Positions 8,734 through 30,925 of a stretch of 64,000 bases of DNA are shown here, in pieces. The number at the start of each line of letters is the position of its first letter. Positions within the stretch are counted from its first letter, which is position 1. A model generated the notes under the pieces. It was not told the DNA's origin, made no database searches, and was given only the letters and a program-made list of their open reading frames with translations. The position numbers and the translations under genes were made by a program. Source of the DNA: an uncultured Bacilli bacterium (lineage in GTDB: Bacteria; Bacillota_I; Bacilli_A; RF39; UBA660). Where the stretch lies: NCBI GenBank assembly GCA_947629315.1, contig CANRDB010000001.1:4829-68828 (forward strand), read 5' to 3'.

Positions 8734-11040
8734 CTACTCTTCTGAAGAATCTTTATCTCCATATTTCACAAGTACTTCTCTTGGTTTAGAACCATTCTGT
8801 GGTCCTATAATTCCTCGCTCTTCTAATAGGTCAATACAACGAGCTGCACGGTTATATCCTAAACGGAATCTTCTTTGTAATAAAGAAGTACTGGCTTTTC
8901 CCTGTTCTACTACAAAATCTACAATTTCATCATAGAGAGGCTCTTCCATCGCATCTGATTTACTTTCCACACCCGTAATAGCATGCTCCTCTTCTATGGT
9001 CTGTTCTAAAGATTTATCATAATTTGCTTTCTGTTGTTTACATACGAAATCAACAATAGCTTTCGTTTCTTCTTCAGAAATAAATGTTCCTTGAATACGA
9101 ATAGGAGTATTAACACCTTGTGGTAAAAAGAGCATATCTCCTTTTCCTAACAATTTTTCCGCACCAATCATATCCAAAATGGTACGAGAATCGATACCAG
9201 AAGATACGGCAAAGGAAATACGAGAAGGAATATTAGACTTAACAACTCCTGTAATAACATCAGTGGATGGACGTTGCGTCGCTACAATCAAGTGAATTCC
9301 TGCTGCCCGCGCCATTTGCGTAATTCTCATGATAGAATCTTCTACTTCTTTAGCAGCTACTAACATCAAATCCGCTAACTCATCGATAATAACGACAATG
9401 TATGGCATCAATTTTACCTTTTCCTCATCTGGCTTTGACTCATTTTCTTTCATCAAATGCTCATTATAACTGGTGATATTCTTGGTCCCACTACGTTCAA
9501 AAATATCATAACGATTCTCCATCTCAGCCACTATTTTTTGTAAGACAATATTGGCTTTTTTAGGATCTGTGACAACTGGCGTTAATAAGTGAGGAACCCC
9601 ATTATAGACGGATAATTCTACTTTTTTAGGGTCCACTAAAACAAGTTTCACTTCATCTGGTTTTGTACGCATCAAGATAGACGCTAAAATACTATTAATA
9701 CAAACAGACTTACCACTACCAGTAGAACCTGCTACCAATAAGTGAGGCATTTTATTAATTTCTAGGAATCGACATTCTCCTTCAATATCTTTTCCTAATA
9801 CTGCCAATAATTTTTTATCTAAAGATTTATCTTCCTCATTAGCTTTTAAAAGTACTTCTCGTACACCAACCATGGAAATGGTAGGGTTTGGAAGTTCAAT
9901 ACCAACCGTATTCTTACCAGGAATAGGCGCTTGAATACGAACATCTTTGGCCGCTAACGAAAGAGCAATCTCACGGTTAAGACCTAATATCTTACTAACC
10001 CTTGTACCCGCTTTAATCTCTAACTCATATTGAGTTACAGCAGGACCGACTTTCGCACGAACTACTTTTCCCTCAATTCCAAAATCTCTTAGTACTTGTT
10101 CTAGAGTTGGAATATTTTTCTTAATTGCCTCTTGATTTTCCTTATTACTATTTTTCGTTGTCTTATTCAAAAGATTCAATGGTGGATATTCCCAATGAGT
10201 ATTTTCTTCATAGACTTCGACTCTCGTCACTTCTCCCGTCTCTTCATCGACAACCGGTTCCATCTTTGTTTGATGCACTTCTTCTCTTGGGATAACACGA
10301 CGATTATCTTCCTCTACCTTATCATCATCCTCAGATTCATCCTCTTCGTCCTCTGATTCCTCCTCTTCCTCATCGTCATCATCAGCCTCTTCATGCTTAC
10401 GACTAGAGTGTTCCGCAATTTTATGCATCTTTTCCTTAGCCTTCATCAAGGTATCATAAATAGAGATACCTGTAAACATAATGAATCCGCAAATCATCAG
10501 AGCAATCGATACGACAATCGTACCATCTAGTGTTAAAAGAGCAACAAACAAGCTAGAGAAAATCGCACCAATTACTCCCCCTCCTAAATTAGACATAGAA
10601 GAAATGAGAGTATTGCCTTCGCTTTTGACAAAGTGCATAACACTATCAATGGTCTCAGAAACAACCGTCGTCGTATCTTTTACCAATTGAAAATGTTTGA
10701 CATCAATATTCTCTAAATGATTTAAATATGCCGTATGTGATAAAATTAACGCACAAATGAGCATAATATAAAGCCCTAAAAATTTAACATTTAAAAAGTC
10801 TGGACGTTCCCGACGGATAATCATAAAAATACCACAGATTCCTACTACAACTAGTAAAATTGCCCACCAAGTTCCCACTAAGAAAGCAGCAAACCCTTTA
10901 ATGATATCCGCAACAATTCCAAAAGGACAACATCCAATAATCGCAATTAATACTAAACCAAAACCTTTTAGTTCTGACAAATTTGTAGATTTTTCCTCTT
11001 TTGCTTTTTTCTTTTGTTTCTTCTTTTCCATCGTCATCAC
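8734..11040 (-). CDS. ftsK: DNA translocase FtsK/SpoIIIE
   Basis: N-terminal TM helices, an acidic linker, the motor domain with Walker A GSTGSGKS, and a C-terminal winged-helix gamma domain ([21 protein letters not shown]). Confidence 0.9.
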
Positions 11041-12516: not shown

Positions 12517-12615
12517 CTACGATTTCATTTTATCATATTTTTCTATAAAAAAGAAGATTTTCATCATATTCCTCAAAATTTTTTCATACACTTTATTGAA
12601 AAAAGGAGGAAACAG

Positions 12616-13113
12616 ATGATAAACAAAAAAGGAGTTTGGTTTTTAACATTATTCAGTTTAATTTTAGTTCTAAGTGTCTACTATATCACCATGCCACCAG
12701 AATTACTTGTCACTAGTAAAAAAAATCCATCTAATGACAATTCCCAACCAGTTGCCAATATGGAAGAAAGCAGTATCCTTGTCGCATTAAGAGTAGAAGC
12801 AGATGAAACAATGGAAGAAGAACTATCCTCTTTAAAGAAAATCATCAGCAATGCCGAGAGTTCTGTAGAAGATAAGAATAAAGCATTTGAAAAAATCAAA
12901 GAACTGAATTCTAATCGCAGTGCGGAAGAAAATCTAGAATCCAAAATTGAATCTACTTATCAACTCCAATCATTTGTCAAAATTAATGGCAATGTCATCG
13001 AGGTCATCGTTCACAAAAGTGAACACGACAGCAAATTGGCAAATGATATCATGAGAACCATTCAAGAAGAATTTGATACCTCTAAAAATATTACTGTGAA
13101 ATTTCAAAAATAG
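12616..13113 (+). CDS. SpoIIIAH-like sporulation protein
   Basis: N-terminal TM, a Glu-rich helical region (LRVEADETMEEELSSLKKII...EENLESKIES) and a C-terminal beta domain (VKINGNVIEVIVHKSE). This matches the SpoIIIAH family layout. Strong AAGGAGG SD. Confidence 0.5.
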   Translation: MINKKGVWFLTLFSLILVLSVYYITMPPELLVTSKKNPSNDNSQPVANMEESSILVALRVEADETMEEELSSLKKIISNAESSVEDKNKAFEKIKELNSNRSAEENLESKIESTYQLQSFVKINGNVIEVIVHKSEHDSKLANDIMRTIQEEFDTSKNITVKFQK

Positions 13114-13194
13114 GCAGAATGAGACACCAAACAAATTTTTTCTCATAAAATACTATGAATATGATAAACCACCCTATCAGGAAGTGAGGGAGCA

Positions 13195-13401
13195 ATGAGA
13201 AAAAATATTTTAACAAACAGAGAAAAAGAAGTGTTTGATTTGTTAATTCAAAACTATACAACCAAAGAAATTGCAAAGCAGTTAAAAATTAGTGAAAAAA
13301 CAGTTCGAAATCACATCTCGAATACCATCCAAAAAATTGGTGTCAAAGGAAGAGCAGCTGCTGTTGTTGAACTATTACGGCTAGGAGAAATTTCTTTATA
13401 A
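13195..13401 (+). CDS. GerE/LuxR-type HTH transcription regulator (stand-alone 68 aa)
   Basis: LTNREKEVFDLLIQNYTTKEIAKQLKISEKTVRNHISNTIQKIGV is the LuxR C-terminal HTH. The size and stand-alone form resemble GerE. Confidence 0.75.
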   Translation: MRKNILTNREKEVFDLLIQNYTTKEIAKQLKISEKTVRNHISNTIQKIGVKGRAAAVVELLRLGEISL

Positions 13402-13448
13402 AATGCATGTATATGCATTTTTTTCATATAATTTATTGAGGTGTTACT

Positions 13449-14651: not shown

Positions 14652-17600
14652 ATGAGGTGTCACATGAGTCAATCGGATAAATTAAAACAAATAACAGGTA
14701 GAGTAAAACGAGAAATGGACCGCACCATTCGTGAAATTAATCGTTACTATGCCAGTTATAGTCAAGAATTAGAAAACAGACAGATTCTAGATCCTAACAA
14801 CGAAGAACAAAGGGCTTTAGCAGAGCAATTCTTTCAAAGAGAGACAGAAAATCTAAAACAGGAATTACATCAATTCATCGAATCTGGCATCAATGAAGAA
14901 GATGCCTTAAAAAGTGAATTACCTCGCGCTTATGCTTTAGTCAAAACAGCGAGTAAATTTTTATGGAACAAGCCTCACTATGATGTTCAATTAATGGGTG
15001 GTATTCTTTTAAATGATGGATATGTTTCCCAAATGGCTACTGGGGAAGGAAAAACGCTAACAGCTGCCCTCCCCGCCTATTTAAATGCTCTTCTCGGTAA
15101 AGGAGTACATGTCTTAACACCAAATGCCTATCTAGCAAAAAGAGACCAAGAAGAGATGGGGGAACTCTACGGCTTACTAGGTCTATCTTGTGGTCTTGCC
15201 AATACTGAACGATTCGATTTTACACAGGCAGATGTACAGCGCCGAATGGATGAAATTATAGCGCGAGAAGTTTCCGAACTTTCTTATCAAATCGACTGTT
15301 CTTCAGCAGGAACTAAAAAAGGACGAAAAACGGATACGGAAACAAGCCAAAGAAGAATTAAAAAATGAATGTCTCGCAAGAAAAAGAAAAGTATATCAAA
15401 TGGATATTGTCTATGGAGCAACCCATGCCATTGCTTTCGATTATCTATGGGATGGTCTTGCGCAAGAGGAACAAGGGACCGTACAACGGATTGGACAACC
15501 AAACTTTGCTATTATCGATGAGGCAGATGACGTACTTTTTGACAGTGCGAGAACTCCTTATATTATTTCCGGTTCTCAAGAAGATGAGGAATTGAGAATT
15601 CGAAGTGAAGATGCCGAAAATGTGGTGAAATCTATCAAACAGGCAAATGAGGCAGTTTCCTATCTATACGATACCATTCAATTTTGGCAAAGAAAAAATG
15701 GAGAAGTTCTAGAAGGAGAAATCCCTGAAAATGAGAAACACAAACGAAAAGATTATGTCTCTTTTGAAAATGACATGAATCTAGCGCTCATTACGACATC
15801 GCAAACTCGTGAATGTGAATTAACCACCCTAGGAGAAACGATTATTTTTCAAAAGTACTATGGACAACAAATTCAAGAGATATTAAATAAAAATCAAGAT
15901 CTTATTATGTCATTGGAACAAAATGGAGCTCCCCTACTAAAATCGAATGTGGACTATTTCATTAATTTAGATGGAGAGATTTCTCTTGCTCCTCGCGCAT
16001 TTGCTTACTTAGTCGCGGGAGAATACATCTCAGAGTTATCTAATCTATTTGTTCATTTCCGTGGGAAAGAACTACTCCAAGATAGTGAATTTATTCAAAA
16101 TGCTTTGAAAGCATGGTTCACGTATCAAGAAGGACATGATTATGCCTTTGATGAGAAAACTTCATCAGTAGTACCAATCATTAACGGTCGAATTTACAAA
16201 GGTAGAAAATACGCTAAAGGATTTCAACAAGCTCTAGAAGAAAAAACCAAAGTATTATTACAAAAGCAATTGGGAGATAGAGCGCCAAAAATCAACGAAT
16301 CCAGACTAACAGAGACATTAGCGTCTATCCCTACCAATGCTTTCTTTGCTCGCTACCAGAAAGTTGGAGGAATGACGGGTACTTCTGCTGTTTTTGCTTT
16401 CAATAACCTTTATGGTCTAGATTCCTATGCGGTACCGAGAAACCGTCCTCGACAAGTTATCGATCACGGAGAGAGATTCTATACAAATAAGGATGCGAAA
16501 TATGAAGCTATTTTCCAATTGGCATTACAAGCCTATCAAACAAAACAACCACTCCTTATTTCTACCACTTCTACGGAAGAGAGTGAACTTCTACAGAAAT
16601 ATTTAATATCTCGATTAGAACAATATCAAAGAGGACTTCCAGAACGGGAAAGAAGAGCGATTAAGATTCCAGTTTTAAATGCCAGTGTTACCAAGTTGGC
16701 AGATGAAGCTAAAATTATATCTAACGCCGGTATTCCTGGGGCGATTACCATTGCAACTGAAATGGCTGGTCGTGGAACAGATATTAAATTAGGAGGAGAA
16801 GTTCCTGATAAACAAGAATTAATTCAGTCCATGCTTAAAATTAAAGTAAGGTCTCTTGTGGAAAAAAGAAAAAAAGCAGGTCTTGTCGATGAACAAAAAT
16901 ATAAAACACAACTGACTTATAAAAAAAGAATAGACCAAGAAGCAAGACAGTGGATTATTGATAACATCGGTATGGATGCCATTGCCAAAGAAATTGAAGA
17001 ACCTTATCGCCTATTAAAACAAGAAAAAGAACAACGAGAAAGTTTTATTAAAAACAACTCAGCGTTTAAAGGATTAAAAGTTGTCGTTTGTGGACATTTC
17101 CCATCTGCACGGACAGATGACCAAGTCAAAGGTCGATGTGGAAGACAAGGTGATCCAGGAGAATATATCTTCCTAAGTGATCCTGATGATTTAGCGCATG
17201 TTGGTATCAATCCTACTACCATTGAACGTCTCAAGATTATCGCTAATAGCCAACCAGATCACTGCATCGTAGAAACAGCGAACTCCAAACTATTCCACCT
17301 TCGAAAAATGATTTTATCCGCACAACGTCATAACGATAATATGAGTCATGAAAACATTCTCTCCTCTCTTCAATTTGATGCCGCTATCAGTACTTGCCGA
17401 GAGAGTGTTAGAAAAGTAACTGATCGATTCAAGCAAACAGAAAATTACATATCTTATATGAAGATAGCGATTGATAATACCTGTCAAAGTATTCTAGAAG
17501 GTTCTTCTGAAAATAAGAACTATACTTATCCTGATATAGAACGAAGTACCATCCAAAAGGCACATCTTAATCTTCCAAAAGTATGTTCTCTTTGTGAAGA

Positions 17601-18366
17601 CTTCCTTGGGGTAGAGATATCCCCTGAACTACTCGCATCCGCTAGAACAGTTCGGGATGTGAAAAATATAATCGAACAGAAAAGTACTCAGAGATTAGAA
17701 GTCTATATCGATCAACAGAAAAAGGAACAAATCAAAAAGTTAAAAGAGAAATATCAAAAACATAATGCGAGAATCTTAAACATTTCGGAAATCGTCAATT
17801 TATTCCGACAGACAGGAATTCAAGGATTAAAAGGTTATGTGCAAGAGCGTCTTAACTTCAAAAAATATGCAAAACTTTCCGATATCGAATTAGAAGCGGA
17901 AGTTACCGAAACGCTCAATGAATCTTTCAAAGAAAAATTTTATCAAACTATCAATCGTGCATGGGATAAATTTGAAGAAGATATTGAGGAATTTAAATTG
18001 CAAGTACAATGGACGAATCAATTTGAGTCTCATCCGTTGTCACCAGAAAGCATTCAAAGTTCTATCCAACGTGATTTCTTTCACTGGATGGATACATACC
18101 AAGCAAGACTCGTCCATGATACGATTCATCCAAGCATTTCTAAAGAGAAAGGTCCAAAGGAAGTGTATCCCGTAAGAATTACGACCGAGGGCATCCAAAG
18201 AGTTGCCGATGATTATGATGAAGAATTACAGGATGAAATTACCAACATTTCGGAAGAGGCATCTGTTCTTGGAGTACTTTCTAGTGATGAAATCGTCCCA
18301 TACAAATTAAAGCCATACGTCAGTATGCCAAATCGAAACGTAGAAAACAGAGGAAGAAGAAGATAA
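14652..18366 (+). pseudogene. Divergent SecA-like (SecA2-type) translocase ATPase, split by a frameshift near 15262-15320
   Basis: ORF 14652..15368 carries [41 protein letters not shown] 15400..18366 continues with DIVYGATHAIAFDYL, IIDEADDVLFDSARTPYIISG, ATEMAGRGTDIKLGG and GRCGRQGDPGE. The second frame is already open from 15262 and reads ...RKRKVYQMDIVYGA, matching SecA. The likely real start is ATG 14664. Confidence 0.75.
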
Positions 18367-18447
18367 TTCTTCTTTTTTCATTCCCTTATGCAACTTCATT
18401 ACTCCTTTTTATATTCTTCACGTACCTTATAATAGGAGGTTAAAAAT

Positions 18448-18717
18448 ATGAATGATGAAATATATCAATATGCTCTACAAAAAATTGAGTGTGATAGTCA
18501 ATTCAAGCCAATTGGATGTTATGGTAATTCCCGTGGCAGTACTGGCCCAACTGGCCCTACCGGTCCGACTGGTCCCCAAGGACCCGCTAGCATCACCATA
18601 GGTACCACAACAACAGGCGCTCCAGGAACAAGTGCAGCTGTTACCAATTCTGGTACTAATCAAAATAGTATTTTAAATTTTGTGATTCCTGCAGGAGCAA
18701 CTGATGCTATGTCATAA
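18448..18717 (+). CDS. Collagen-like protein gene, segment 1 of 4. As it stands it is an 89-aa ORF whose last 5 codons and stop come from element IE-1
   Basis: AGGAGG SD and ATG at 18448. It encodes a 31-aa N-terminal region, then GSTGPTGPTGPTGPQGP, then the module ASITIGTTTTGAPGTSAAVTNSGTNQNSILNFVIPAGAT. The host part ends at 18700 inside GGAGCAA|CTG. Confidence 0.8.
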   Translation: MNDEIYQYALQKIECDSQFKPIGCYGNSRGSTGPTGPTGPTGPQGPASITIGTTTTGAPGTSAAVTNSGTNQNSILNFVIPAGATDAMS

Positions 18718-18726
18718 ATCACAAAA
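18688..18726. other. attL of IE-1
   Basis: cctgcaggAGCAACTGatgctatgtCATAAATCACAAAA. It shares the 8-nt core AGCAACTG with attR1. The outer arm is the inverted partner (13 of 14) of TTTTGTGGTTTATG at 23121. Confidence 0.65.
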
Positions 18727-18742
18727 AAAGAATTGATTAGAA

Positions 18743-20977
18743 TCAATCCTCAATTTCTTTAATCAACATTTGATATAACGCACGATTTCCTTCCTCTGTT
18801 AAATGAATTTTATCCACTCGTACATATTCTTTATGTTGTTGAATCTCTTCATAAAAAGGAATAATATGGAGAGACGATATTCCCAATGTTTCTAGTAATA
18901 TCTCGTCCTCTTCTGTCATCGCTACTACATATAACTCATTTTCTTGGCACAATTGGAAAACTGTTTGTATTTCTTGTTCCAATCTTGGTACCTGACTATC
19001 AAAAGCTACTACTAATCGATAAGTTAACGTATTACTATCCGCAGCTTTTTGAAGTTCTTGTTGCAAATCTTGCCAAGTAAAATCTTGCCGAACAATAAAC
19101 TGTGCTTGTTGATATTCCTGATGTAGTTCATTAAAAATATTCACTAAAACATCATTACCGTAAAAGGTAATTTTATTTTTTAATTCTTCTTCATGATGAT
19201 GAATAATCTCTTCTTTTTTCTGTTGATATCGATCTAGATAAACTTGATAAATAGATTGATAAATTAAGTTGGTGTAAGCCTTTCTTCCTTCTGGAGTTAA
19301 GTGGATACCATCCGCATAAAAATACTTTGAATGTCCTTGTGATGCAGTCTCCCAATCAATAATATGTAAATTAGAATGACTCTTACTTAACTCTTTTAAT
19401 TTACTATTTACATGGACATCTTTATCGTTAGTAACCGTAATCCAAAAGACATCTCTATCACCACACGTTTGTAAAATTTCTTCCTTACAAGAAGAAGAAC
19501 AATCTCCATTCGCACCCAAATTCAATATTACAGGATTACCTAACAGATTACTATCCTCTAATTCTTCTAAAATACCGTTCGCTACCCAAATAGAACGTGA
19601 TACCTTCGCATCAAAATATCCATTTGGAAATTGTTTATAGAGATTATCAACAGCTCCTAACATAATAGAATCCCCGACTCCAACTACGGATAACTCAGAA
19701 ACAATCTTTTGAATTTCTTGTTCCCCATTCTCTAAATCCTCTAAAACAGAGAACCAATCTTCTTGTTCCTGTTGTAATCGATCCGCATACTCTTTTTGTT
19801 TTTGTTGAATAACCTCTTCATTAGCCGCTAACTCTTCTTTTAGTCTTTTCATTTCTGCCGTATGATCCTTCGTTTGTGCATAACAATAAACACCAGGAAC
19901 ACAGATGACACACAATATGATAGCCATCGCTGCATGCATTCTCGTTCTAGCATGGGGTCGACTACTGATGCTAAAATGAAAAACGGAACCTACTACAAGC
20001 ACTCCTAAAAGAATCGATAAAATCCGTACAGAATCCGACATTGAAAAGGCTTGCAAAAAGTAAATAATCGGATACTGAACCAAGTAGATGCAATAACTTC
20101 TATCTGAAAACCAATGAACAATTCGGTTTCCTACCCCTGCTAATTTGTTTACCATCAAAGTACTATAATCAATCATCCGACAAGTAATAAGAGATACTAT
20201 CAACATTGCTACTGCCCAAGAAGGTGCAGAAGCATCGATTGTTAAAAATAACCAAACTAAGAGAACAAAATATCCTCCAAAAAGACCATAGGCAATCAGA
20301 GAATGTTTCATGTTTTTTAGAATAAGTGGATAATAATAAAACTGAATAAACCCTAAAGTCATTCCCCAAAATAAGGAAAACATTCTCGTAAACGTATGAT
20401 AGTAAACCACCATAATATCTTGCGTGCCACTCATTTGATAAAAATACCAAGCACTTCCTATCGATACTACCAATAATAGTAAACAAGGAATCATTTTATG
20501 AATATGATCTCCTATTTTACGTAATATTTGATAGAAGAATGGAAAAAGCAAATCAAATTGCAATAAAATAGAAATATACCATAAATGCATAAATGGAGAA
20601 TCTAAGTGTCTAGCAAAATAATCTAAATTCGCCCCTAATTGCCAAAAATTATTATATCCTAACAAAACAGATGTTGTCTCTGGTTTTAAATTCAACCATG
20701 TATACTGGGAACAAAAAAACACAACAAAAAGAGTTAAGAACACAGTCAATAACAAAGGAAAATATATTTTAGTAAACAGTCTCTTATAATATTCCCAAAT
20801 AGAAAAATGATTCTTATGAAAAGCTGAAACGCACGATAGATAGCCACTTAACACAAAGAAACAACAGACCGCTAAATAGCCTCCTTTTAAAACATGCAAA
20901 TGATAAAGCAAAACGGCAATGCATGATAACACTCGTAAATAATCTAGTGCATAATAATACTTCTTAGTACTTTCCAT
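18743..20977 (-). CDS. OatA-like O-acyltransferase: acyltransferase-3 membrane domain + coiled coil + SGNH hydrolase domain + extra C-terminal domain
   Basis: About 10 TM helices with the N-terminal YLRVLSCIAVLLYH motif, then VVGVGDSIMLGA (SGNH block I) and DGIHLT (block V). Confidence 0.8.
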   Translation of the reverse strand: MESTKKYYYALDYLRVLSCIAVLLYHLHVLKGGYLAVCCFFVLSGYLSCVSAFHKNHFSIWEYYKRLFTKIYFPLLLTVFLTLFVVFFCSQYTWLNLKPETTSVLLGYNNFWQLGANLDYFARHLDSPFMHLWYISILLQFDLLFPFFYQILRKIGDHIHKMIPCLLLLVVSIGSAWYFYQMSGTQDIMVVYYHTFTRMFSLFWGMTLGFIQFYYYPLILKNMKHSLIAYGLFGGYFVLLVWLFLTIDASAPSWAVAMLIVSLITCRMIDYSTLMVNKLAGVGNRIVHWFSDRSYCIYLVQYPIIYFLQAFSMSDSVRILSILLGVLVVGSVFHFSISSRPHARTRMHAAMAIILCVICVPGVYCYAQTKDHTAEMKRLKEELAANEEVIQQKQKEYADRLQQEQEDWFSVLEDLENGEQEIQKIVSELSVVGVGDSIMLGAVDNLYKQFPNGYFDAKVSRSIWVANGILEELEDSNLLGNPVILNLGANGDCSSSCKEEILQTCGDRDVFWITVTNDKDVHVNSKLKELSKSHSNLHIIDWETASQGHSKYFYADGIHLTPEGRKAYTNLIYQSIYQVYLDRYQQKKEEIIHHHEEELKNKITFYGNDVLVNIFNELHQEYQQAQFIVRQDFTWQDLQQELQKAADSNTLTYRLVVAFDSQVPRLEQEIQTVFQLCQENELYVVAMTEEDEILLETLGISSLHIIPFYEEIQQHKEYVRVDKIHLTEEGNRALYQMLIKEIED

Positions 20978-21122
20978 ATTTCAAACCTCATTCATTGTGA
21001 TTATATATCATAAAGCCTTAAAATTCAAGACACTTTACGTCAATCCTAACTAATATTTTGTGAGAAAAAAACATGATTATTTGTTTCATTTTATTTTATG
21101 CAATTAGAAAGGAGTTATACTG

Positions 21123-23120
21123 TTGAATCAAAAAAGAGTGGCATTATATCTACGATTATCCAAAGAAGATATCGACAAGCCAACCAAGTTCTCTATCAGC
21201 GAAAGTATCAAAAATCAAGAACTATTACTGCGTGAAGAAGTGAAAAAACACCCTGATTGGGTCGTAGTAGCTGTCTATTCTGATGAAGACTTTTCAGGAG
21301 CAGGAACTTATCGACCAAGCTTTGACAAAATGATTCATGCCTGTGAAAAGCACATGATTGATATCATTCTCTGTAAAAGTCAGTCCCGTTTTTCTAGAGA
21401 TATGGAATTAATTGAAAAATATATTCATAACAAATTTAAAGAATGGAATATACGATTCATTAGTATCGTAGATAATGCCGATACTGATAACGATGGCAAT
21501 AAAAAATCTAGACAGATTAATGCTCTTGTCAATGAATGGTTTCTAGAGGATTTATCCGATAATATTCGGGCAACTTTACGAACAAAATGGCAGCATGGAG
21601 AATGTACCGCTGCTTTCGCTAAATATGGATTTCTAAAAGATCCCCAACATAAAAATCACCTAATCATAGATACGGTTGCTAGTCAAACCATTCAAGAAAT
21701 TGCTCATCTCTTTTTAGAGGGAAAAGGTCCAGAAACCATCGCTCACATTTTAGAACAGAAGCATATTCCTAGTCCTTATGAATACAAACTACAAATGGGA
21801 AGTAAACTAAAAATTCCTTTGCTTTCCTTAAACCATCCAAAAATAATTACTAAAAACGGAAAATATATTTTTACCCTTTTTCCAAGTGGAGAACCAATAG
21901 ACCATGTCGTCCTATCCATCCTACCATTTCAAGATTACGATATGACACTAACTCTCATAAAACAAAGTGGCAATGTAAAGGTTTATTATTCCCAGGAGAA
22001 ATTCTCTTCTGCTATCGAAACCGTATTGCCGGTTGAACATTCTTCATTTTGGAGACAATTGCCTATCAATCTTTCTATTTCTCATATTCAACTACTGGCT
22101 ATCTATTGTCTTCCAAACAATTTAGAAAAAACTTATTTAGAATGGGAAATAAACATCCATACCCTACCGTCTCATGATTTTTCTTTAAACATCCAATCCT
22201 TTGATGCAATACACCAACCAATTGATTTTTGGCAGTATCGAATCAGAAAAAAATATCAGTGGAATAGTCGGACAATCTATCACATTTTGAAAGATGAAAC
22301 TTATCATGGTACCTTAATTCAAGGAAAAACAAAGCGAATCAGTTATAAAAATCATACTAGTATTGCTACTCCCAAAGAGCAATGGTATGTTCAAGAAAAT
22401 ATTCTCCCTAAAATTCTAGATGATCAAACTTGGATAGCTATTCAAAATAAATTACAACTACATCCACGCGCAAGCAAAAATGGAAAACACCCTATCTTTA
22501 CTGGAAAAGTTTTTTGTGGAGTATGTGGAAAACCTCTTCAAAAAAACTCGAGCAGTTCTCTTGCTTCCCCTGTTAAAAAAGAATATTTAATTTGTAAAGC
22601 AAGAAAAGAACATTGGAAGAATTGTGAAAACAAAAAATCATTTCCCGTTTTAGAATTACAAAAATTAATCATTACTCAATTTCAAAATTTATGGAATTCC
22701 TATTACGATATGACTACCTTAAAGCAGATTCATAAGGAAGAACCCCATCATCAAACTATAGACGATCTCATGAAAGAAGAACAAAATTTACAAGAAATTA
22801 TCCAGCAGAATAACCAAATTCTTTATCAATTATACAAAGATAAAAGCACTGGCCTCATGGATGATTCTTGTTTTCATACCCTACTTCTACAAAATCAACA
22901 GGAAATGGATACTTATCACCAAAGATTGCAAATGATTGCCCAAGAGTTAAAACAGATTCAAACGAAACAGGAATTTTTCATGTCTACTGTGTGTGAATTT
23001 CTCAATACTCATTCCTTTGAAGACTATTTTTCAACCATTCTACAGCATTTTATTAGCAGCATTTTCATTGGAAAGCTGAACCATCATCAAAGAACAATCC
23101 AAATTCATTGGAAAATCTAA
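21123..23120 (+). CDS. Large serine recombinase Rec1 (665 aa, TTG start)
   Basis: [12 protein letters not shown] (catalytic Ser), [10 protein letters not shown], a recombinase domain, a zinc ribbon (CGVCGKP...[11 protein letters not shown]), a coiled coil and a C-terminal IQIHWKI tail. AGGAG SD 7 nt before the TTG. Carries about 150 extra aa compared with Rec2. Confidence 0.9.
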
Positions 23121-23281
<161 letters not shown>

Positions 23282-23288
<7 letters not shown>

Positions 23289-24784
23289 ATCCACTCTATA
23301 GTAACTACTCTTTTTCCCTGTTCTATATTGCCAATTTGTATTCGTTGAATAAAATTCTTTACCGTCTTAAGGGAAAGTTCAAGTTTTCTTTTAGAAAAAG
23401 AAAATGACATTTGTTCTTTTTTCATATTGGCAAGAGTATTTGATAACTTCTCTAACTCTTTGATATAACTTTTTTTGAGATTTTGAAAAACCTCATCATC
23501 TAGTTGTTGTTGAACATAATCGTCATACACTTTTTTTAAGCCTCGTTCTTTTTGATGGTAATCTTTTTCTAATCGTTCAAATTCTTTCTTATATAATAGA
23601 TTCTGTTCTATACTATATTGCTTCTCATATTCTAAAAGCAATTGTTCGTCGACAAATTGATGATAAAACTTCAAAAATTCTTTGAACACTAAAGATTCTA
23701 TCACATCCAAACGAATAGAGGTATGATTATCACAATGTTGCCAATAACTTCTTCTATCACGACAAACTAAATACGAATACACAGAATGGCTAGAAGAATT
23801 TTTTTCAAAGGATTGTCCACATTTTTGACAATATATTTTTTTACTAAACTCATAAATTTTACCCGTTTTAGATTGAATTCTCGTCTTTTGTTGCATTCTT
23901 CTTTGTACCTCATTCCACATCGATAAAGAAATAATCGGGTCATGCTGATGAGATACAACAATCCAATCCTTTTTTTGAAGAGAAATTACCTTTTTATTTT
24001 TATAGGAAATTTTTCGATATTTTCCCTGTACTACACTACCAATATACACTTCATTTTTTAAAATATCTGCAATTGTTTTTTCACTCCATTGATTACTAGT
24101 CGATGGTCCATAATATTTAGAACCTATTTCTTTTTTATATTGACTGGGAGTTGGAATCCCTTGATGATTCAAACACTGCTTAATTTTAGAATATCCATAA
24201 CCTTTCGCATATAACGCATATATTTGTTGAACATATTTAGAAGCAATCGGGTCAATTTCTAAATGATTTTTATCTTTCTTTTGGTAACCAAAAGGCGCAA
24301 AAGAACCGGTAAATAGACCAACTTCTTTTTTATTTCGTAATGTTTTACGAATATTTATAGAAGAATCTTCCAAATACCATTCATTCATCAAAGCATTGAT
24401 TTGTCTGGTTTTTTTATTTTCTTCTACAGAGGTATCAGCATGATCAACTAAACTGATAAAACGAACGTTCCACTCTTTAAATTTATTATGAATATATTGT
24501 TCAATTACTTCTAAATCTCTCGAAAAGCGAGACTGACTCTTACATAATACAATATCAATATTTCCTTGTTCACAATCTTTTAGCATGCGGATAAAAGCTG
24601 GTCTTTCTCTATCGATACCAGAGTAATCCTCATCAATATAAATATCAAAGATATCCCATCCTTCTTCTTGAACTTTTTGAAGTAACATTCTCCTTTGATT
24701 TTGAATACTTTCACTAAAGTCTTTTTTATCAATATCTTCTTTGGATAATCGCAAATAGATTGCTACTCTATTGTTCCCTATCAT
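23282..24784 (-). CDS. Large serine recombinase Rec2 (close paralog of Rec1)
   Basis: [36 protein letters not shown] (near-identical in Rec1), zinc ribbon CQKCGQ...[11 protein letters not shown], and the tail VVTIEWIF. The ORF track extends to 24796. MIGNNR at 24784 has the better SD (GAGGA). Confidence 0.9.
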
Positions 24785-24866
24785 AAGATTCCTCATTTTG
24801 AGAAAGAATTTCTTGTTCTAATACCGCCAACAACTGACGATTAAAAGTTTCTTTCCTTTGTTCCAT
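24768..24866 (-). CDS. Possible 32-aa ORF overlapping the Rec2 start
   Basis: Own translation: [32 protein letters not shown], with a GAGGAAAAG SD upstream. Too short to be sure it is expressed. Confidence 0.2.
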   Translation of the reverse strand: MEQRKETFNRQLLAVLEQEILSQNEESYDREQ

Positions 24867-24983
24867 AGACTTTTCCTCATCATGGAATACATTGATTATT
24901 TCAATATTATATTTCATATTTTCACCATTACAAAATATGAAAAAAAGCGAAGATTTATATCTCCACTTCTTTCTCCTGCAAAA

Positions 24984-26012
24984 TCATTTTCGCTGTTGGC
25001 TAATATCTAATACCCATAAAATATTCGATGGTAGAATACTTCCACAATACGAGCATATCTTATCAAAGAGTCCCACATTGGCGCCACAATTGTGACATTT
25101 TTTCACACTATTCATCGTAAACTTCGGATAATAATTTTGATTACGAATCAAGGTTACTGTTTCTTTTCCCTGCACTTTTTTGATGCGACCATTGCGTTCA
25201 AAATACTTTCGAATAATAAAAGTAATTCGAATGGCAGGAATATTCCCCTTCTTGATAACTTTATAAGTATCATACTCTAAAATTTCAAAATCTACTAAAT
25301 CTTGATATTGAGGAAAAATTTTCTCATCATAGTAATGCACCAACAATTGGTAATTTAAATCTTGAATAATCTTTTGATTACTCATCCGAACTTTATCAAT
25401 CATAATTCTATCATTCCTTAAGTCACGATAGGTAATCACTTTTACCAAAAGATAAGGAATCAAAAGAAAAGTATACAATAGATGAAGAGTAAATAGCATA
25501 ACAGGTAGTGTCACGAACATCAACATAACGGCAATAAACCAAGGATACTCTCCTGACTGTAAAGTTCCCATAAACGATATACCTGTCAAAATCATGCAAG
25601 TGCTTCCCAAAAAGATTTTATACTTTTTCATAGAAAAAATCTGTTTAAAGGATTGTGTCAAATTTTTTTGATGAACTCCCTGTTCTAAATAAAAAGAAGC
25701 TCCACAATAAGGGCAACCATCGTAAAACTCTTTTTCAGTAGCATGATATCCACATTCAGAACAAGTAAATTCATTATCCCCTCTAGATAATGTCATTGTA
25801 TAAGTTATGTTATCATCAAATTTCTTTTCACGATAAAGACGTTTTCCACCTTGATAATAATTTTTCTCTATCTTATTAGCTTTATAAACAGAATCGTTTC
25901 GGTTTCCATTTAAAGTACGAACAAATAACTGATCTTTATGTCGAAAAATCTCCTCTACTACAAGATTCTTTTTAGCAAGTCTTTGTAAATGCATTTGTAA
26001 AGGACTTGGCAT
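24984..26012 (-). CDS. Membrane protein with two zinc ribbons (IE-2 cargo)
   Basis: CSECG..CPYCG near the N-terminus, at least 3 TM helices, and a C-terminal CHNCG..CSYCG. Confidence 0.6.
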   Translation of the reverse strand: MPSPLQMHLQRLAKKNLVVEEIFRHKDQLFVRTLNGNRNDSVYKANKIEKNYYQGGKRLYREKKFDDNITYTMTLSRGDNEFTCSECGYHATEKEFYDGCPYCGASFYLEQGVHQKNLTQSFKQIFSMKKYKIFLGSTCMILTGISFMGTLQSGEYPWFIAVMLMFVTLPVMLFTLHLLYTFLLIPYLLVKVITYRDLRNDRIMIDKVRMSNQKIIQDLNYQLLVHYYDEKIFPQYQDLVDFEILEYDTYKVIKKGNIPAIRITFIIRKYFERNGRIKKVQGKETVTLIRNQNYYPKFTMNSVKKCHNCGANVGLFDKICSYCGSILPSNILWVLDISQQRK

Positions 26013-26075
26013 ACTATCACACTCCTACTATTCTCATTATAACAAAAAAAGTCCTCATCACAACTATTTTTTTCT

Positions 26076-26115
26076 ATTTTGACAATGAACTATGGAGCAA
26101 CTGGTCCAGTAGGTC
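26076..26115. other. attR of IE-2
   Basis: ATTTTGACAAtgaactatGGAGCAACTGgtccagtaggtc. Confidence 0.7.
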
Positions 26116-26140
26116 CTACTGGAGACGTTGGCCCTACGGG
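26101..26140 (+). pseudogene. Collagen-like gene segment 3 of 4 (40 nt)
   Basis: Reads (a)ct GGT CCA GTA GGT CCT ACT GGA GAC GTT GGC CCT ACG GG = [13 protein letters not shown]. It lies between attR2 and attL3. Confidence 0.65.
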
Positions 26141-26168
26141 TCCTACTGCACTCACTTAAAAGTGGCAC
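26125..26168. other. attL of IE-3
   Basis: gttggccctacgGGTcctactgcactcacttAAAGTGGCACT. The arm is the perfect inverted partner of AGTGCCACTTT at 29419. Confidence 0.6.
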
Positions 26169-26256
26169 TTTTGCCAAAAATTAGAACGAAAATAAGCACT
26201 TTACATTTCATTTGAAATATTATATAATACAAGTAACTAGAAAGAAGGGATTATAA

Positions 26257-27651
26257 ATGAAAAAAGTAGTAGGAACAGTAATGAAAGGGATGCTTGTTAC
26301 TTCAGGAGTTGTCACTGCTGTTGGTTGTACATTAGCTATCAGTAATCATTTGTTGAAATCAGATGATCTTGTTCTATCCAATCACAATGGTAGCGAAGTA
26401 AAACAAGCAAATGTTTTAGCGGTCGCTCAAAATCAAGTAAAGGAAGCGGAAGTTCAAGAGGCAAAAGCCAACCAAGAATTGACAAAAGCAACAAATGAAA
26501 AAGCAGAGGCAGAAAAAGAAGTTCAAAAAGCGAAAGAAACTGTGAAAGAGGTTCAAAAGGAAAAAAGCAAAGCCGAAGCACAATTAAAAGAAGCCAAAAC
26601 AGAAGAAGAAAGAAAACAGGTAGAAGATCAAATTAAAGTTTTAGAAGAAAAAGTGAAAGAAGCTGAAAATAATCAAAAAGCAGCAGAATCAAAAGTACAA
26701 GAAGCAGAGACTAAGGTTCAAGAGGCTGAAGTGAAAGTTCAAGAGGCTGAAGCCAAGGTTCAAGAAGCTGAGGCTAAAGTTCAAGAAGTACAAGAGACAG
26801 AAATGAAGAAACAAGAAGTAGAAAAACAAGTTCAAGAAGTTCTTCCAGCAAATCCTTCAAAAGAAGAAACTCAAACTACTGTCAAAGAAGAAAACACTAC
26901 CAAACCAGTTGAAAATAATCAACAAGTAACGACTCAAGAAACAAAGCAACCAGAGACAAAACAAACTGAAACGAAACAACCAGAGACAAAGCAAGTTGAA
27001 ACAAAACAGACTGAAACGAAAAAAGAAGAATCTTCAACAAACAATAATTCTTCTAATAATAGTTCTTCTAGATTAACGCAAGAGGCTTTAGAGGCTGCAG
27101 CGAGAGCAGAACAAAAATGGAATGAGGAATATCAAAAATTCCTTGCTGATCAAAAAGCAGAAGCAGATGCTAAAAAGCAAGCAAGAGATGAGGAAGCTAA
27201 AAAAGCAGAAGAGGCTGCTGAAAAAGAATTGGAAGAAAGAAGACAAAGAGAATCAACAGACAGTTTAAAGAACTTTGGTTCAGCGACTACTGATACCGTA
27301 TTTGGAGATAGAACTTTTACATTTGCTCAAAAGAATGTAGATTTACCATTTAATCCAGATATCAAAGAAAATCCAAAGAAAGTGACTTGTACAGGAGACC
27401 ATTGCGGAAAGAATGAACAAGGTTACATTTGGTTTGCTAGATTTAATAACAATTTAAATCTTGATATCTTTAAAGAACCTGGTAGTGATCGTTATGTAAG
27501 TAGTGTTCTTATTGGAAAACGTGGCGATGTAGAATATTGGACGCAATATGCACCAAGTGTTGTAAACGGTCATCAATTTGTAGAGTGGAAAGTAACAGAT
27601 ACTACTGAATATGGTATGAAAATTAAAGTTTATACTGCCATTTATAAGTAA
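26257..27651 (+). CDS. Secreted/anchored repeat protein (IE-3 cargo)
   Basis: N-terminal signal/anchor (VVGTVMKGMLVTSGVVTAVGC), KVQEAE-type coiled-coil repeats, ETKQ(P/T/V) repeats, and a C-terminal globular domain containing Cys residues. Confidence 0.7.
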   Translation: MKKVVGTVMKGMLVTSGVVTAVGCTLAISNHLLKSDDLVLSNHNGSEVKQANVLAVAQNQVKEAEVQEAKANQELTKATNEKAEAEKEVQKAKETVKEVQKEKSKAEAQLKEAKTEEERKQVEDQIKVLEEKVKEAENNQKAAESKVQEAETKVQEAEVKVQEAEAKVQEAEAKVQEVQETEMKKQEVEKQVQEVLPANPSKEETQTTVKEENTTKPVENNQQVTTQETKQPETKQTETKQPETKQVETKQTETKKEESSTNNNSSNNSSSRLTQEALEAAARAEQKWNEEYQKFLADQKAEADAKKQARDEEAKKAEEAAEKELEERRQRESTDSLKNFGSATTDTVFGDRTFTFAQKNVDLPFNPDIKENPKKVTCTGDHCGKNEQGYIWFARFNNNLNLDIFKEPGSDRYVSSVLIGKRGDVEYWTQYAPSVVNGHQFVEWKVTDTTEYGMKIKVYTAIYK

Positions 27652-27653
27652 TG

Positions 27654-27684
27654 AAAGAGCGAAACAATTCGCTCTTTTCTTTTG
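27654..27684 (+). terminator. Terminator after the repeat protein
   Basis: AAAGAGCG-aaacaatt-CGCTCTTT followed by TCTTTT. Confidence 0.5.
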
Positions 27685-27734
27685 ACCTATGATTAAAACT
27701 ATCCTTTTAGAATAATATACATTGAGGAGGTTTG

Positions 27735-27824
27735 ATGATGAAAGTAATCAGTCATTTTAAAGATAATGGTGAAAATTTAACAAAAGTTATAGAAGAATTG
27801 TTAAAAAATATCATTCAAAAATAA
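27735..27824 (+). CDS. Possible 29-aa ORF immediately upstream of Rec3
   Basis: A GAGGAGG SD followed by MMKVISHFKDNGENLTKVIEELLKNIIQK. Its stop is 6 nt before the Rec3 ATG. Confidence 0.25.
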   Translation: MMKVISHFKDNGENLTKVIEELLKNIIQK

Positions 27825-27830
27825 AGGCAA

Positions 27831-30925
<3,095 letters not shown>

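What the first reader, a model, noticed from the sequence alone, without database searches (positions are those of the whole stretch)
18694..18717. In the integrated state IE-1 supplies a 5-codon tail and a stop, giving a possible 89-aa mini-protein
With IE-1 in place, the segment 1 ORF reads ...NFVIPAGAT then DAMS*. The D-A-M-S codons and the TAA (18703-18717) are element DNA. The interrupted allele is therefore not just broken. It can encode a short protein with the N-terminal region, five G-X-Y triplets and one beta-module. The locus may switch between a stub and a full-length fibre rather than between off and on.
Basis: inference. Interest (0 to 1): 0.5.

Follow-up and report, generated by a model that had tools for sequence, protein, structure and literature searches.

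The report
Leftover stub of a split collagen gene
The 89-residue reading frame is real, but it is most likely just the front piece of a spore-surface-type collagen-like gene cut by a small mobile element, and its four extra codons and stop are the element's own recombinase-binding end.

Summary
Observation confirmed. ORF 18448-18717 (+) encodes 89 aa (8.9 kDa) ending ...NFVIPAGAT-DAMS*, and the last codons lie in inserted DNA.

Context: a collagen-like gene plus a co-transcribed glycosyltransferase is split into four in-frame pieces. Three small elements (4446, 2837 and 3297 bp) do the splitting. Each carries one intact large serine recombinase and is inserted at the same core, GCA-AC-TG. Seamless removal gives a 268-aa, 24.6-kDa protein that aligns end to end with uninterrupted homologues.

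The DAMS-stop tail is the inner 15 nt of IE-1's P' attachment arm, and the TAA lies in the arm's conserved TTTATG block. Related elements give unrelated tails (AP*, AS*, ATI*), and other element families give tails of up to 46 codons. A stop within five codons is expected about 30% of the time in this AT-rich DNA.

The gene family carries a sigmaK-type -10 box, so transcription is probably late and mother-cell specific.

The stub-versus-fibre switch is therefore unsupported but not excluded. The stub has a good RBS and a confidently predicted beta-module. In relatives, 5' fragments persist under purifying selection.

The stub is an ordinary consequence of a known kind of gene interruption. The triple-split locus itself is the more interesting object.

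The parts
18421..18429 (+). sigmaK-like -10 box CGTACCTTA, 27 nt upstream of the ATG (one mismatch to CATA---TA)
   Evidence: Homologous genes L010, L013, L016, L017, L020 and L029 have perfect CATA---TA at -25 to -30. L005 has CGTATCCTA. No sigma-70 promoter was called in 18200-18900.
18434..18439 (+). Ribosome-binding site AGGAGG of the collagen-like gene
   Evidence: Sequence.
18448..18717 (+). 89-aa stub ORF: segment 1 of the collagen-like gene plus the DAMS tail and TAA
   Evidence: An identical ORF lies on metagenome contig L001.
18696..18703 (+). attL1 shared core AGCAACTG; inferred crossover dinucleotide AC at 18700-18701 (first two bases of the Thr85 codon)
18702..18727 (+). P' half-site of IE-1; contains the tail codons and the stop. 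The TAA at 18715-18717 is the complement of TTA in the conserved TTTATG block.
   Evidence: 19 of 25 positions match the other arm, next-best axis 12. Related arms are shown.
18704..23149 (.). IE-1, 4446 bp (equivalently 18702-23147 if counted from the crossover)
18743..20977 (-). IE-1 cargo: 744-aa Acyl_transf_3 / SGNH-like O-acetyltransferase, convergent on the stub (26 nt between the stops)
21123..23120 (+). IE-1 large serine recombinase, 665 aa
   Evidence: Resolvase + Recombinase + Zn_ribbon_recom. (phrog_95 integrase, 5.5e-84).
23120..23149 (+). P half-site of IE-1 plus the attR1 core (ATTTTGTGGTTTATGTCTTTGCAGCAACTG)
23150..23266 (+). Segment 2 of the collagen-like gene (39 codons, all G-X-Y)
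23267..26103 (.). IE-2, 2837 bp. Contains a 504-aa serine recombinase (23282-24796, -), a 49-aa upstream ORF (24768-24917, -) and a 342-aa zinc-ribbon membrane protein (24984-26012, -).
   Evidence: terminal inverted repeat I3; dyad 17/25.
26104..26148 (+). Segment 3 (15 codons, G-X-Y)
26149..29445 (.). IE-3, 3297 bp. Contains a 464-aa repetitive secreted-type protein (26257-27651, +), a 30-aa ORF (27732-27824, +) and a 529-aa serine recombinase (27831-29420, +).
   Evidence: I16; dyad 18/25.
29446..29834 (+). Segment 4: G-X-Y array, second beta-module and stop (TAA 29832-29834)
   Evidence: Aligned with intact homologues.
29840..30925 (+). Glycosyltransferase family 2 + TPR gene, starting 5 nt after the collagen-gene stop (operon partner)
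   Evidence: The same gene pair occurs uninterrupted in L029, with 57% identity.

Best explanation
The 89-aa ORF is the 5' fragment of a BclA-like collagen-like gene. That gene forms a two-gene operon with a glycosyltransferase. The gene is cut into four in-frame pieces by three small elements, each with its own large serine recombinase. All three are inserted at the same core, GCA-AC-TG, that is at a Thr codon of the G-X-T repeat.

The four extra codons and the TAA are simply the first 15 nt of IE-1's P' attachment arm, read in the frame the target dictates. The stop falls in the arm's conserved TTTATG block. The stub is therefore a by-product of the insertion.

The product under selection is the 268-aa protein, restored by three precise excisions. 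These most likely happen in the sporulating mother cell, where a sigmaK-type promoter would fire.

Shown: anatomy, att-site symmetry, seamless reconstitution, homologues, non-conservation of tails, promoter motif. Inferred: timing and cell type of excision, and absence of a role for the stub.
For: - Four in-frame segments and three elements, each with an intact Resolvase + Recombinase + Zn_ribbon_recom protein.
- The rebuilt attP sites all have their best dyad axis at the A|C of GCAA|CTG: 19/25, 17/25 and 18/25 matches, next best 11-13. The terminal inverted repeats of IE-2 and IE-3 were also found independently.
- The 268-aa reconstituted product aligns end to end with uninterrupted 180-230-aa homologues at 62-78% identity. 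An intact collagen-gene/GT pair exists in L029.
- Tails differ among IE-1 relatives and among element families. The tail length is within chance expectation.
- A sigmaK-type -10 box sits at a fixed position in 6 of the 9 family genes examined, with a one-mismatch form in the window and in L005. Internal controls: gerE carries CATAAAATA; spoIIIAH and gerM carry sigmaE-type boxes.
- SpoIIIAH, GerE and GerM-like genes lie 4-6 kb upstream.
- The truncated 5' product of the analogous gerE/gin system was inactive (PMC5595907).
Against: - No excised (attB) or circular (attP) junction was found. The only other assemblies of this species show IE-1 and IE-3 integrated.
- No recombination directionality factor was identified. 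IE-1 has no spare ORF.
- The recombinase genes show no sporulation-type promoter motif.
- Other elements hitting this gene family are plainly mobile: MobL/TraG in L020 and IS200/IS605 in L017.
- The window's own -10 box has a mismatch (CGTA).
- Spore formation and spore localisation of the protein are inferred, not shown.
Confidence: 0.55

Rival explanations
1. Plain mobile-element hotspot. The G-X-T repeat is a convenient multi-copy target. The three elements are ordinary integrative elements that inactivated the operon in this strain. No programmed excision occurs, and both the stub and the downstream segments are recent wreckage.
For: - Uninterrupted homologues are common.
- Other tail families belong to a mobilisable element (684-aa recombinase with DUF4368, MobL, TraG; L020) and to an IS200/IS605 transposase (L017).
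- Cargo genes have sigmaA-like -10 boxes.
- Only integrated forms are seen in assemblies.
- No directionality factor was found.
Against: - All four segments remain open and in frame, and all three recombinases and att dyads are intact.
- Every sampled member of the closest orthologue clade (window, P0001-3, P0005, P0006, P0009, P0013, L005) is interrupted, yet the 5' part shows dN/dS of 0.13-0.38.
- IE-1-like elements sit in the same operon type in distant hosts.
- The elements carry no transfer genes.
Confidence: 0.25
2. The stub is a functional second product, for example a short N-terminal anchor plus one beta-module that occupies or caps attachment sites. The locus would then toggle between stub and fibre.
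For: - Strong RBS and an in-frame stop.
- IE-1 cuts exactly at a module boundary, and AF2 predicts an N-terminal helix and a confident three-stranded module.
- 5' fragments are under purifying selection. The L010/L013 pair shares one old junction with no recombinase within 10 kb and still has dN/dS of 0.18.
- In C. difficile a 48-residue BclA1 N-terminal remnant is widespread and reported to keep the anchoring features (PMC13188886).
Against: - The tail is att-site DNA and is not conserved.
- Stub length varies with the insertion site.
- A sigmaK-type promoter implies no vegetative expression.
- The co-transcribed glycosyltransferase is cut off from the promoter while the elements are in place.
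- The 5' GerE fragment in the analogous gin system is inactive.
- Purifying selection is equally explained by use of the reconstituted gene.
Confidence: 0.12
3. Reversible phase variation in the growing population. The recombinases integrate and excise at low frequency in vegetative cells, giving mixed fibre-plus and fibre-minus lineages.
For: - Large serine recombinases can run both directions when a directionality factor is present.
- The three independent elements would give graded products of 89, 135, 142 and 268 aa.
Against: - Excised small circles without replication or transfer functions would be lost, so the switch would be one-way in dividing cells.
- The promoter motif is sporulation-type.
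- No mixed junctions were seen in assemblies.
Confidence: 0.08

Closest known systems
gin element in gerE of Bacillus cereus ATCC 10987 (GirC/GirX; PMC5595907)
   Same: - A small, non-prophage element carrying a large serine recombinase interrupts a late mother-cell gene.
- The att sites have an imperfect inverted repeat around a short shared core with a central dinucleotide.
- The interrupted allele leaves a short 5' ORF, which was tested there and found inactive.
   Different: - Here three different elements sit in one gene.
- The target is a repeated G-X-T codon motif in a collagen-like structural gene rather than a unique site in a regulator.
- No GirX-like factor was identified.
- Excision is not demonstrated.
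skin / sigK (B. subtilis, C. difficile) and SPbeta / spsM
   Same: - Interruption of a sporulation gene by an element with a large serine recombinase.
- Precise excision in the mother cell rebuilds the ORF.
- 5' fragments (spoIVCB, yodU) exist as annotated ORFs (established knowledge).
   Different: - Those elements are 14-134 kb prophage-like.
- They occur one per gene.
- Their timing and directionality factors are known.
BclA-type collagen-like exosporium glycoproteins, and truncated BclA1 of C. difficile clade 2
   Same: - N-terminal region followed by G-X-Y (mostly GPT) repeats.
- An adjacent glycosyltransferase.
- Relatives of this gene carry the BclA-C domain PF18573.
- Natural truncated forms that keep only the N-terminal part exist (PMC13188886).
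   Different: - This protein ends in a ~40-residue beta-module, not a C1q-like domain. It also has a second such module in the middle.
- The truncation is caused by an excisable element, not by a point mutation.
Interruption elements in heterocyst genes of cyanobacteria (nifD, fdxN, hupL)
   Same: Several elements, each with its own recombinase, must all be removed in a terminally differentiated cell to restore function (established knowledge; cited in PMC7192596).
   Different: - Different phylum and cell type.
- The nifD and hupL recombinases are tyrosine-type; only the fdxN element's XisF is a serine recombinase.
- The targets are unique sites.

Membership tests
Large serine recombinase integrative elements | Recombinase with an N-terminal resolvase catalytic domain, a recombinase domain and a zinc-ribbon domain | tested here: met
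   all three proteins hit PF00239, PF07508 and PF13408 above cut-off; phrog_95 integrase, E 5e-84 to 6e-98. The YxRLSKE catalytic-serine motif is present.
Large serine recombinase integrative elements | attP with partial dyad symmetry around a central dinucleotide that is identical in attB | tested here: met
   dyad scores 19/25, 17/25 and 18/25, all centred on AC of GCAACTG. AC is present at all six junctions.
Large serine recombinase integrative elements | Recombination actually catalysed at these sites | not testable with these tools
   Needs in vitro or in vivo assays. No attB or attP junction was found in public contigs.
Sporulation-specific gene-intervening elements (skin, SPbeta, gin, vfbin, yin) | The interrupted gene belongs to the mother-cell sporulation programme | tested here: inconclusive
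   A sigmaK-type -10 box sits at a fixed position across the gene family; the window has a one-mismatch form. The family is BclA-like. SpoIIIAH, GerE and GerM genes lie nearby. There are no expression data.
Sporulation-specific gene-intervening elements (skin, SPbeta, gin, vfbin, yin) | Precise excision restores an intact, homologue-like ORF | tested here: met
   In silico only. The product is 268 aa, has no frameshift, and aligns end to end with intact homologues.
Sporulation-specific gene-intervening elements (skin, SPbeta, gin, vfbin, yin) | Excision is developmentally timed and needs a directionality factor | not testable with these tools
   Candidate small ORFs lie upstream of two recombinases only: 24768-24917 (-) and 27732-27824 (+). 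They have no family match.
BclA-like collagen-like spore surface glycoproteins | Collagen triple-helix G-X-Y region | tested here: met
   PF01391, E 6.6e-21, on the reconstituted protein.
BclA-like collagen-like spore surface glycoproteins | C-terminal BclA-C (C1q/TNF-like) domain | tested here: not met
   No PF18573 hit. The gene ends in a beta-module...[25 protein letters not shown]. Some relatives and the L023 gene do have the domain.
BclA-like collagen-like spore surface glycoproteins | Exosporium-leader type N-terminus and localisation on spores | not tested
   The N-terminus is a predicted helix followed by Cys residues. It was not compared with TIGR03720. Localisation needs experiment.
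Regulated alternative product (stub as a second functional isoform) | The element-encoded tail and stop are conserved at protein level among related elements | tested here: not met
   Tails are DAMS* (window), AP* (L023), AS* (L006), ATI* (L002) and DACYYFFS* (L016).

The most novel reading that the evidence does not exclude
The N-terminal helix/Cys region plus one beta-module is a self-sufficient unit. In cells or lineages where IE-1 stays in place, this unit is made from the sigmaK-type promoter and occupies the anchoring sites of the fibre. Spores would then have a 'bald' or short-nap surface versus a long-fibre surface, depending on how many of the three elements have left (89, 135, 142 or 268 aa).

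The early in-frame stop in IE-1-type arms (2-4 codons in four related elements) would then be selected, not accidental.

The conserved stub-upp junction in related species, where the stub is under purifying selection with no recombinase nearby, would be the fixed 'stub-only' end state.
Probability: 0.1. Interest if true: 0.65.

Novelty: new member of a known kind. Interest (0 to 1): 0.3.

Why it matters
On its own the stub matters little. Every gene-intervening element leaves a 5' ORF, and this one's tail is explained by the att site.

The check brings out a more interesting locus. A sporulation-type collagen-like gene/glycosyltransferase operon is split by three orthogonal serine-recombinase mini-elements that share one crossover core. 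It belongs to a gene family whose G-X-T repeats are hit again and again by different mobile elements in gut Bacilli.

If excision is developmental, this would be a Firmicute counterpart of the multi-element nif/hup rearrangements. It would also be a source of compact recombinases that use the same AC crossover dinucleotide.

Tried and rejected
- Exact searches for the excised junction (attB1) in JGI metagenomes and for the circle junction (attP1) in IMG/VR gave 0 hits.
The nearest genomes are 'uncultured Bacilli' MAGs from rabbit and human gut.
- The sigma-70 promoter and intrinsic terminator scan of 18200-18900 found none. RNA folding of 18700-18790 is unremarkable, z = -0.89.
- The stub has no Pfam family and no solved relative (best E 0.29). 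Foldseek of the AF2 model against the PDB gave only E > 1.
- A search for the inverted partner of the junction arm in relatives L010 and L013 found none within 20 kb.
- The first protein search seemed to show that all homologues are short. This was an artefact: the hit lists stop at 1.75 x the query length. It was corrected with the 268-aa query.
- Literature searches found no report of collagen-like genes split by serine-recombinase elements.
- I considered that 18448 might not be the true start. This was rejected because orthologues start at the same Met with the same RBS spacing.

Full report
**1. The observation**

The ORF 18448-18717 (+) exists. It starts at an ATG 8 nt after an AGGAGG and encodes 89 residues ending ...NFVIPAGAT-DAMS-stop. 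Positions 18694-18717 read GGA GCA ACT GAT GCT ATG TCA TAA. The stub is 8.9 kDa.

Before the beta-module there are six G-X-Y triplets, not five.

A short tail is not unusual. Entering the DNA of the three elements at all positions and frames, a stop is met within five codons 27% of the time (33% from base composition).

**2. What surrounds it**

GPT-type collagen codons occur in four blocks on the + strand: 18544-18581, 23149-23258, 26112-26131 and 29463-29680. None is expected by chance.

Three stretches lie between these blocks, and each encodes one large serine recombinase: 665 aa at 21123-23120 (+), 504 aa at 23282-24796 (-), and 529 aa at 27831-29420 (+). All three have Resolvase + Recombinase + Zn_ribbon_recom and match phage integrase phrog_95. 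The first two are 53% identical over their N-terminal 235 residues. The third is about 30% identical to both.

The cargo is one or two genes per element:
- IE-1: an O-acetyltransferase-like membrane protein.
- IE-2: a zinc-ribbon membrane protein.
- IE-3: a repetitive secreted-type protein.

All six junctions carry ACTG, and five of them GCAACTG. Joining the flanks at that core removes 4446, 2837 and 3297 bp. The result is an open 268-codon gene (24.6 kDa) that stops at 29832-29834, 5 nt before a GT2+TPR glycosyltransferase gene.

**3. The reconstituted gene is real**

A search with the 268-aa product finds many uninterrupted proteins of 160-230 aa with the same order of parts. That order is an N-terminal region with Cys residues, a short G-X-Y run, a beta-module, a long GDIGPTGPT-type run, and a second beta-module ending [10 protein letters not shown]. 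Seven of them align end to end at 62-78% identity in aligned columns.

One of them, P0126, lies directly upstream of a homologue of the glycosyltransferase (57% identity) on an 81-kb contig. This is an empty-site picture of the operon.

Some relatives end in a BclA-C domain instead, so the family is BclA-like.

**4. What the tail is**

I rebuilt the attP of each element from its two ends. The best dyad axis falls at the same place in all three, between A and C of GCAA|CTG. It scores 19/25, 17/25 and 18/25 matching positions, against 11-13 for the next-best axis. The repeat finder found the terminal inverted repeats of IE-2 and IE-3 independently.

This is the anatomy described for serine-recombinase att sites, including the gin element (PMC5595907). 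The crossover dinucleotide is therefore AC, the first two bases of a Thr codon. That explains why every interrupted relative ends in ...T followed by foreign residues.

The codons GAT GCT ATG TCA TAA are positions +2 to +16 of IE-1's P' arm. Its reverse complement is TTTGTGATTTATGACATAGCATCAG, and the P arm reads TTTGTGGTTTATGTCTTTGCAGCAA. The stop is the complement of TTA inside the shared TTTATG block.

The host side of attB1 (AAT TTT GTG ATT CCT, coding NFVIP) also carries TTTTGTGATT. This is a likely reason why IE-1 sits at the first GCAACTG after the module. That last point is my inference.

**5. Is the tail conserved?**

It is not. Relatives of the IE-1 recombinase give the following:
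- L023, L024, L025 and L028 (35% identity): the element sits in a BclA-type gene followed by the same glycosyltransferase, and the tail is AP*.
- L006: the tail is AS*.
- L002 (46% identity): the tail is ATI*.

In each case the stop lies in a (C/T)ATAAA block of the arm. A possibly related arm in L016 gives DACYYFFS*.

In this gene, the IE-2 and IE-3 junctions would give [11 protein letters not shown] and ALT*.

Among the 120 best homologues of the stub there are recurrent tail families:
- ARCNKSSIY[IF]FKW* occurs in at least eight host genes.
- ARF/ARLF... occurs in about thirteen.
- E[PT]Y..., HTL.SESK and others also recur.
- Tails run up to 46 codons.

The first family belongs to a mobilisable element with a 684-aa recombinase, MobL and TraG. 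One member of the second is followed by an IS200/IS605 transposase.

Tails thus follow the element, not the host protein, and stub length follows the insertion point.

**6. When would the gene be read?**

No sigma-70 promoter is called upstream. A sigmaK-type -10 box, CATA---TA, lies 25-30 nt before the start codon in L010, L013, L016, L017, L020 and L029. The window and L005 have CGTA---TA at the same place.

The motif search is validated within the window:
- gerE (13195-13401) has CATAAAATA.
- spoIIIAH (12616-13113) has the sigmaE-type CATACACT.
- The gerM-like gene has CATATAAT.

Pfam confirms these three sporulation genes. They are syntenic with related MAGs.

The cargo genes instead have TATAAT-like boxes.

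The likeliest reading is late mother-cell transcription, as for bclA in Bacillus (established knowledge). The stub would not be made during growth. Whether any is made in the mother cell depends on when the elements leave.

**7. What keeps the stub idea alive**

The stub contains complete units. AF2 predicts a helix at residues 3-19 and a three-stranded module at residues 49-81 with pLDDT about 91-92. The tail is less confident.

The 5' part is under purifying selection among interrupted orthologues, with dN/dS of 0.13-0.38.

In related MAGs the orthologous stub (P0005, P0006) is followed directly by upp and a permease, with no recombinase within 10 kb and no partner arm. That old, shared junction still shows dN/dS of 0.18.

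Either the partner is far away or a one-module protein is useful in those species. In C. difficile a truncated BclA1 N-terminal remnant is widespread and thought to retain anchoring (PMC13188886).

Against a role here is the precedent that the 5' GerE fragment of the gin system is inactive.

**8. Verdict**

The interpretation as a two-state switch is not supported.

The tail and stop are the recombinase's binding arm, so the stub is most likely a by-product. The stub alone is an ordinary feature of a known kind of interruption.

The triple-split, sigmaK-type collagen/glycosyltransferase operon, and the repeated targeting of this gene family, are the parts worth following. I found no report of these in the held literature.

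No excised form was seen in public contigs. Programmed excision therefore remains an inference.

Noticed in passing
L009-L013 (NCBI MAGs, e.g. GCA_948768915.1), locus coordinates ~10001-10430: The orthologous stub (109 or 142 aa, tails ARLF... / ARFIYSSKK...) ends at ACTG|CTCGATT. It is followed directly by upp and a uracil/xanthine permease. No recombinase lies within 10 kb and there is no partner arm. The junction is shared by species whose stubs differ at dS > 1, yet dN/dS is 0.18. This is either a distant partner or a fixed one-module protein.
   Followed up: partly
Homologues P0037, P0040, P0074, P0085, P0086, P0095, P0100, P0119; L020 659-3029: The identical tail ARCNKSSIY[IF]FKW* occurs in at least eight different collagen-like genes. 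In L020 it overlaps the 3' end of a convergent 684-aa serine recombinase (DUF4368) on an element with MobL, TraG and a DNA methylase. The gene family is a recurrent target of truly mobile elements.
   Followed up: partly
L017 6021-6881: Another interrupted family member (tail ARFNNSSNN...) is followed by an IS200/IS605-type Y1 transposase, so not all interruptions involve serine recombinases.
   Followed up: no
window 15340-15400: The SecA-like gene upstream is in two ORFs (14652-15368 and 15400-18366). The first ends just after a run of six A (15361-15366). This is a frameshift, a pseudogene or an assembly error. The second part carries long insertions compared with the SecA models.
   Followed up: partly
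window 24768-24917 (-) and 27732-27824 (+): Small ORFs of 49 and 30 aa lie immediately upstream of, or overlap the start of, the IE-2 and IE-3 recombinase genes. Both are predicted to be helical and acidic, and neither has a family match. They are candidate directionality factors or leader peptides. IE-1 has only a 17-codon ORF in that position.
   Followed up: no
window 29556-29690 versus L007: A metagenome contig of the same species (99.7-100% identical flanks, IE-3 integrated) has a G-X-Y array 135 bp (five 27-nt units) shorter. This is either repeat-number polymorphism or assembly collapse.
   Followed up: partly
window 18673-18701: The host side of attB1 (codons N-F-V-I-P) contains TTTTGTGATT, the same motif as both arms of IE-1's attP but 3 nt closer to the crossover. 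This may explain why IE-1 sits at the module/collagen boundary.
   Followed up: partly
window 12585-13425: Sporulation promoter motifs sit at the expected genes: sigmaE-type CATACACT before spoIIIAH, sigmaK-type CATAAAATA before gerE, and CATATAAT before the gerM-like gene. The lineage seems to use Bacillus-like mother-cell promoters.
   Followed up: partly
window 26440-27030: The IE-3 cargo gene (464 aa) contains tandem 21-nt (KVQEAEx) and 15-nt (ETKQx) coding repeats behind a signal-peptide-like N-terminus. It has no family match.
   Followed up: no
L023 8085-8541: Downstream of an IE-1-like element, the 3' part of a BclA-type gene encodes a C1q/BclA-C-like domain (...AYVNIVKIA*) with no start codon of its own. 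This is a second example of an intact 3' fragment that can be read only after excision.
   Followed up: partly
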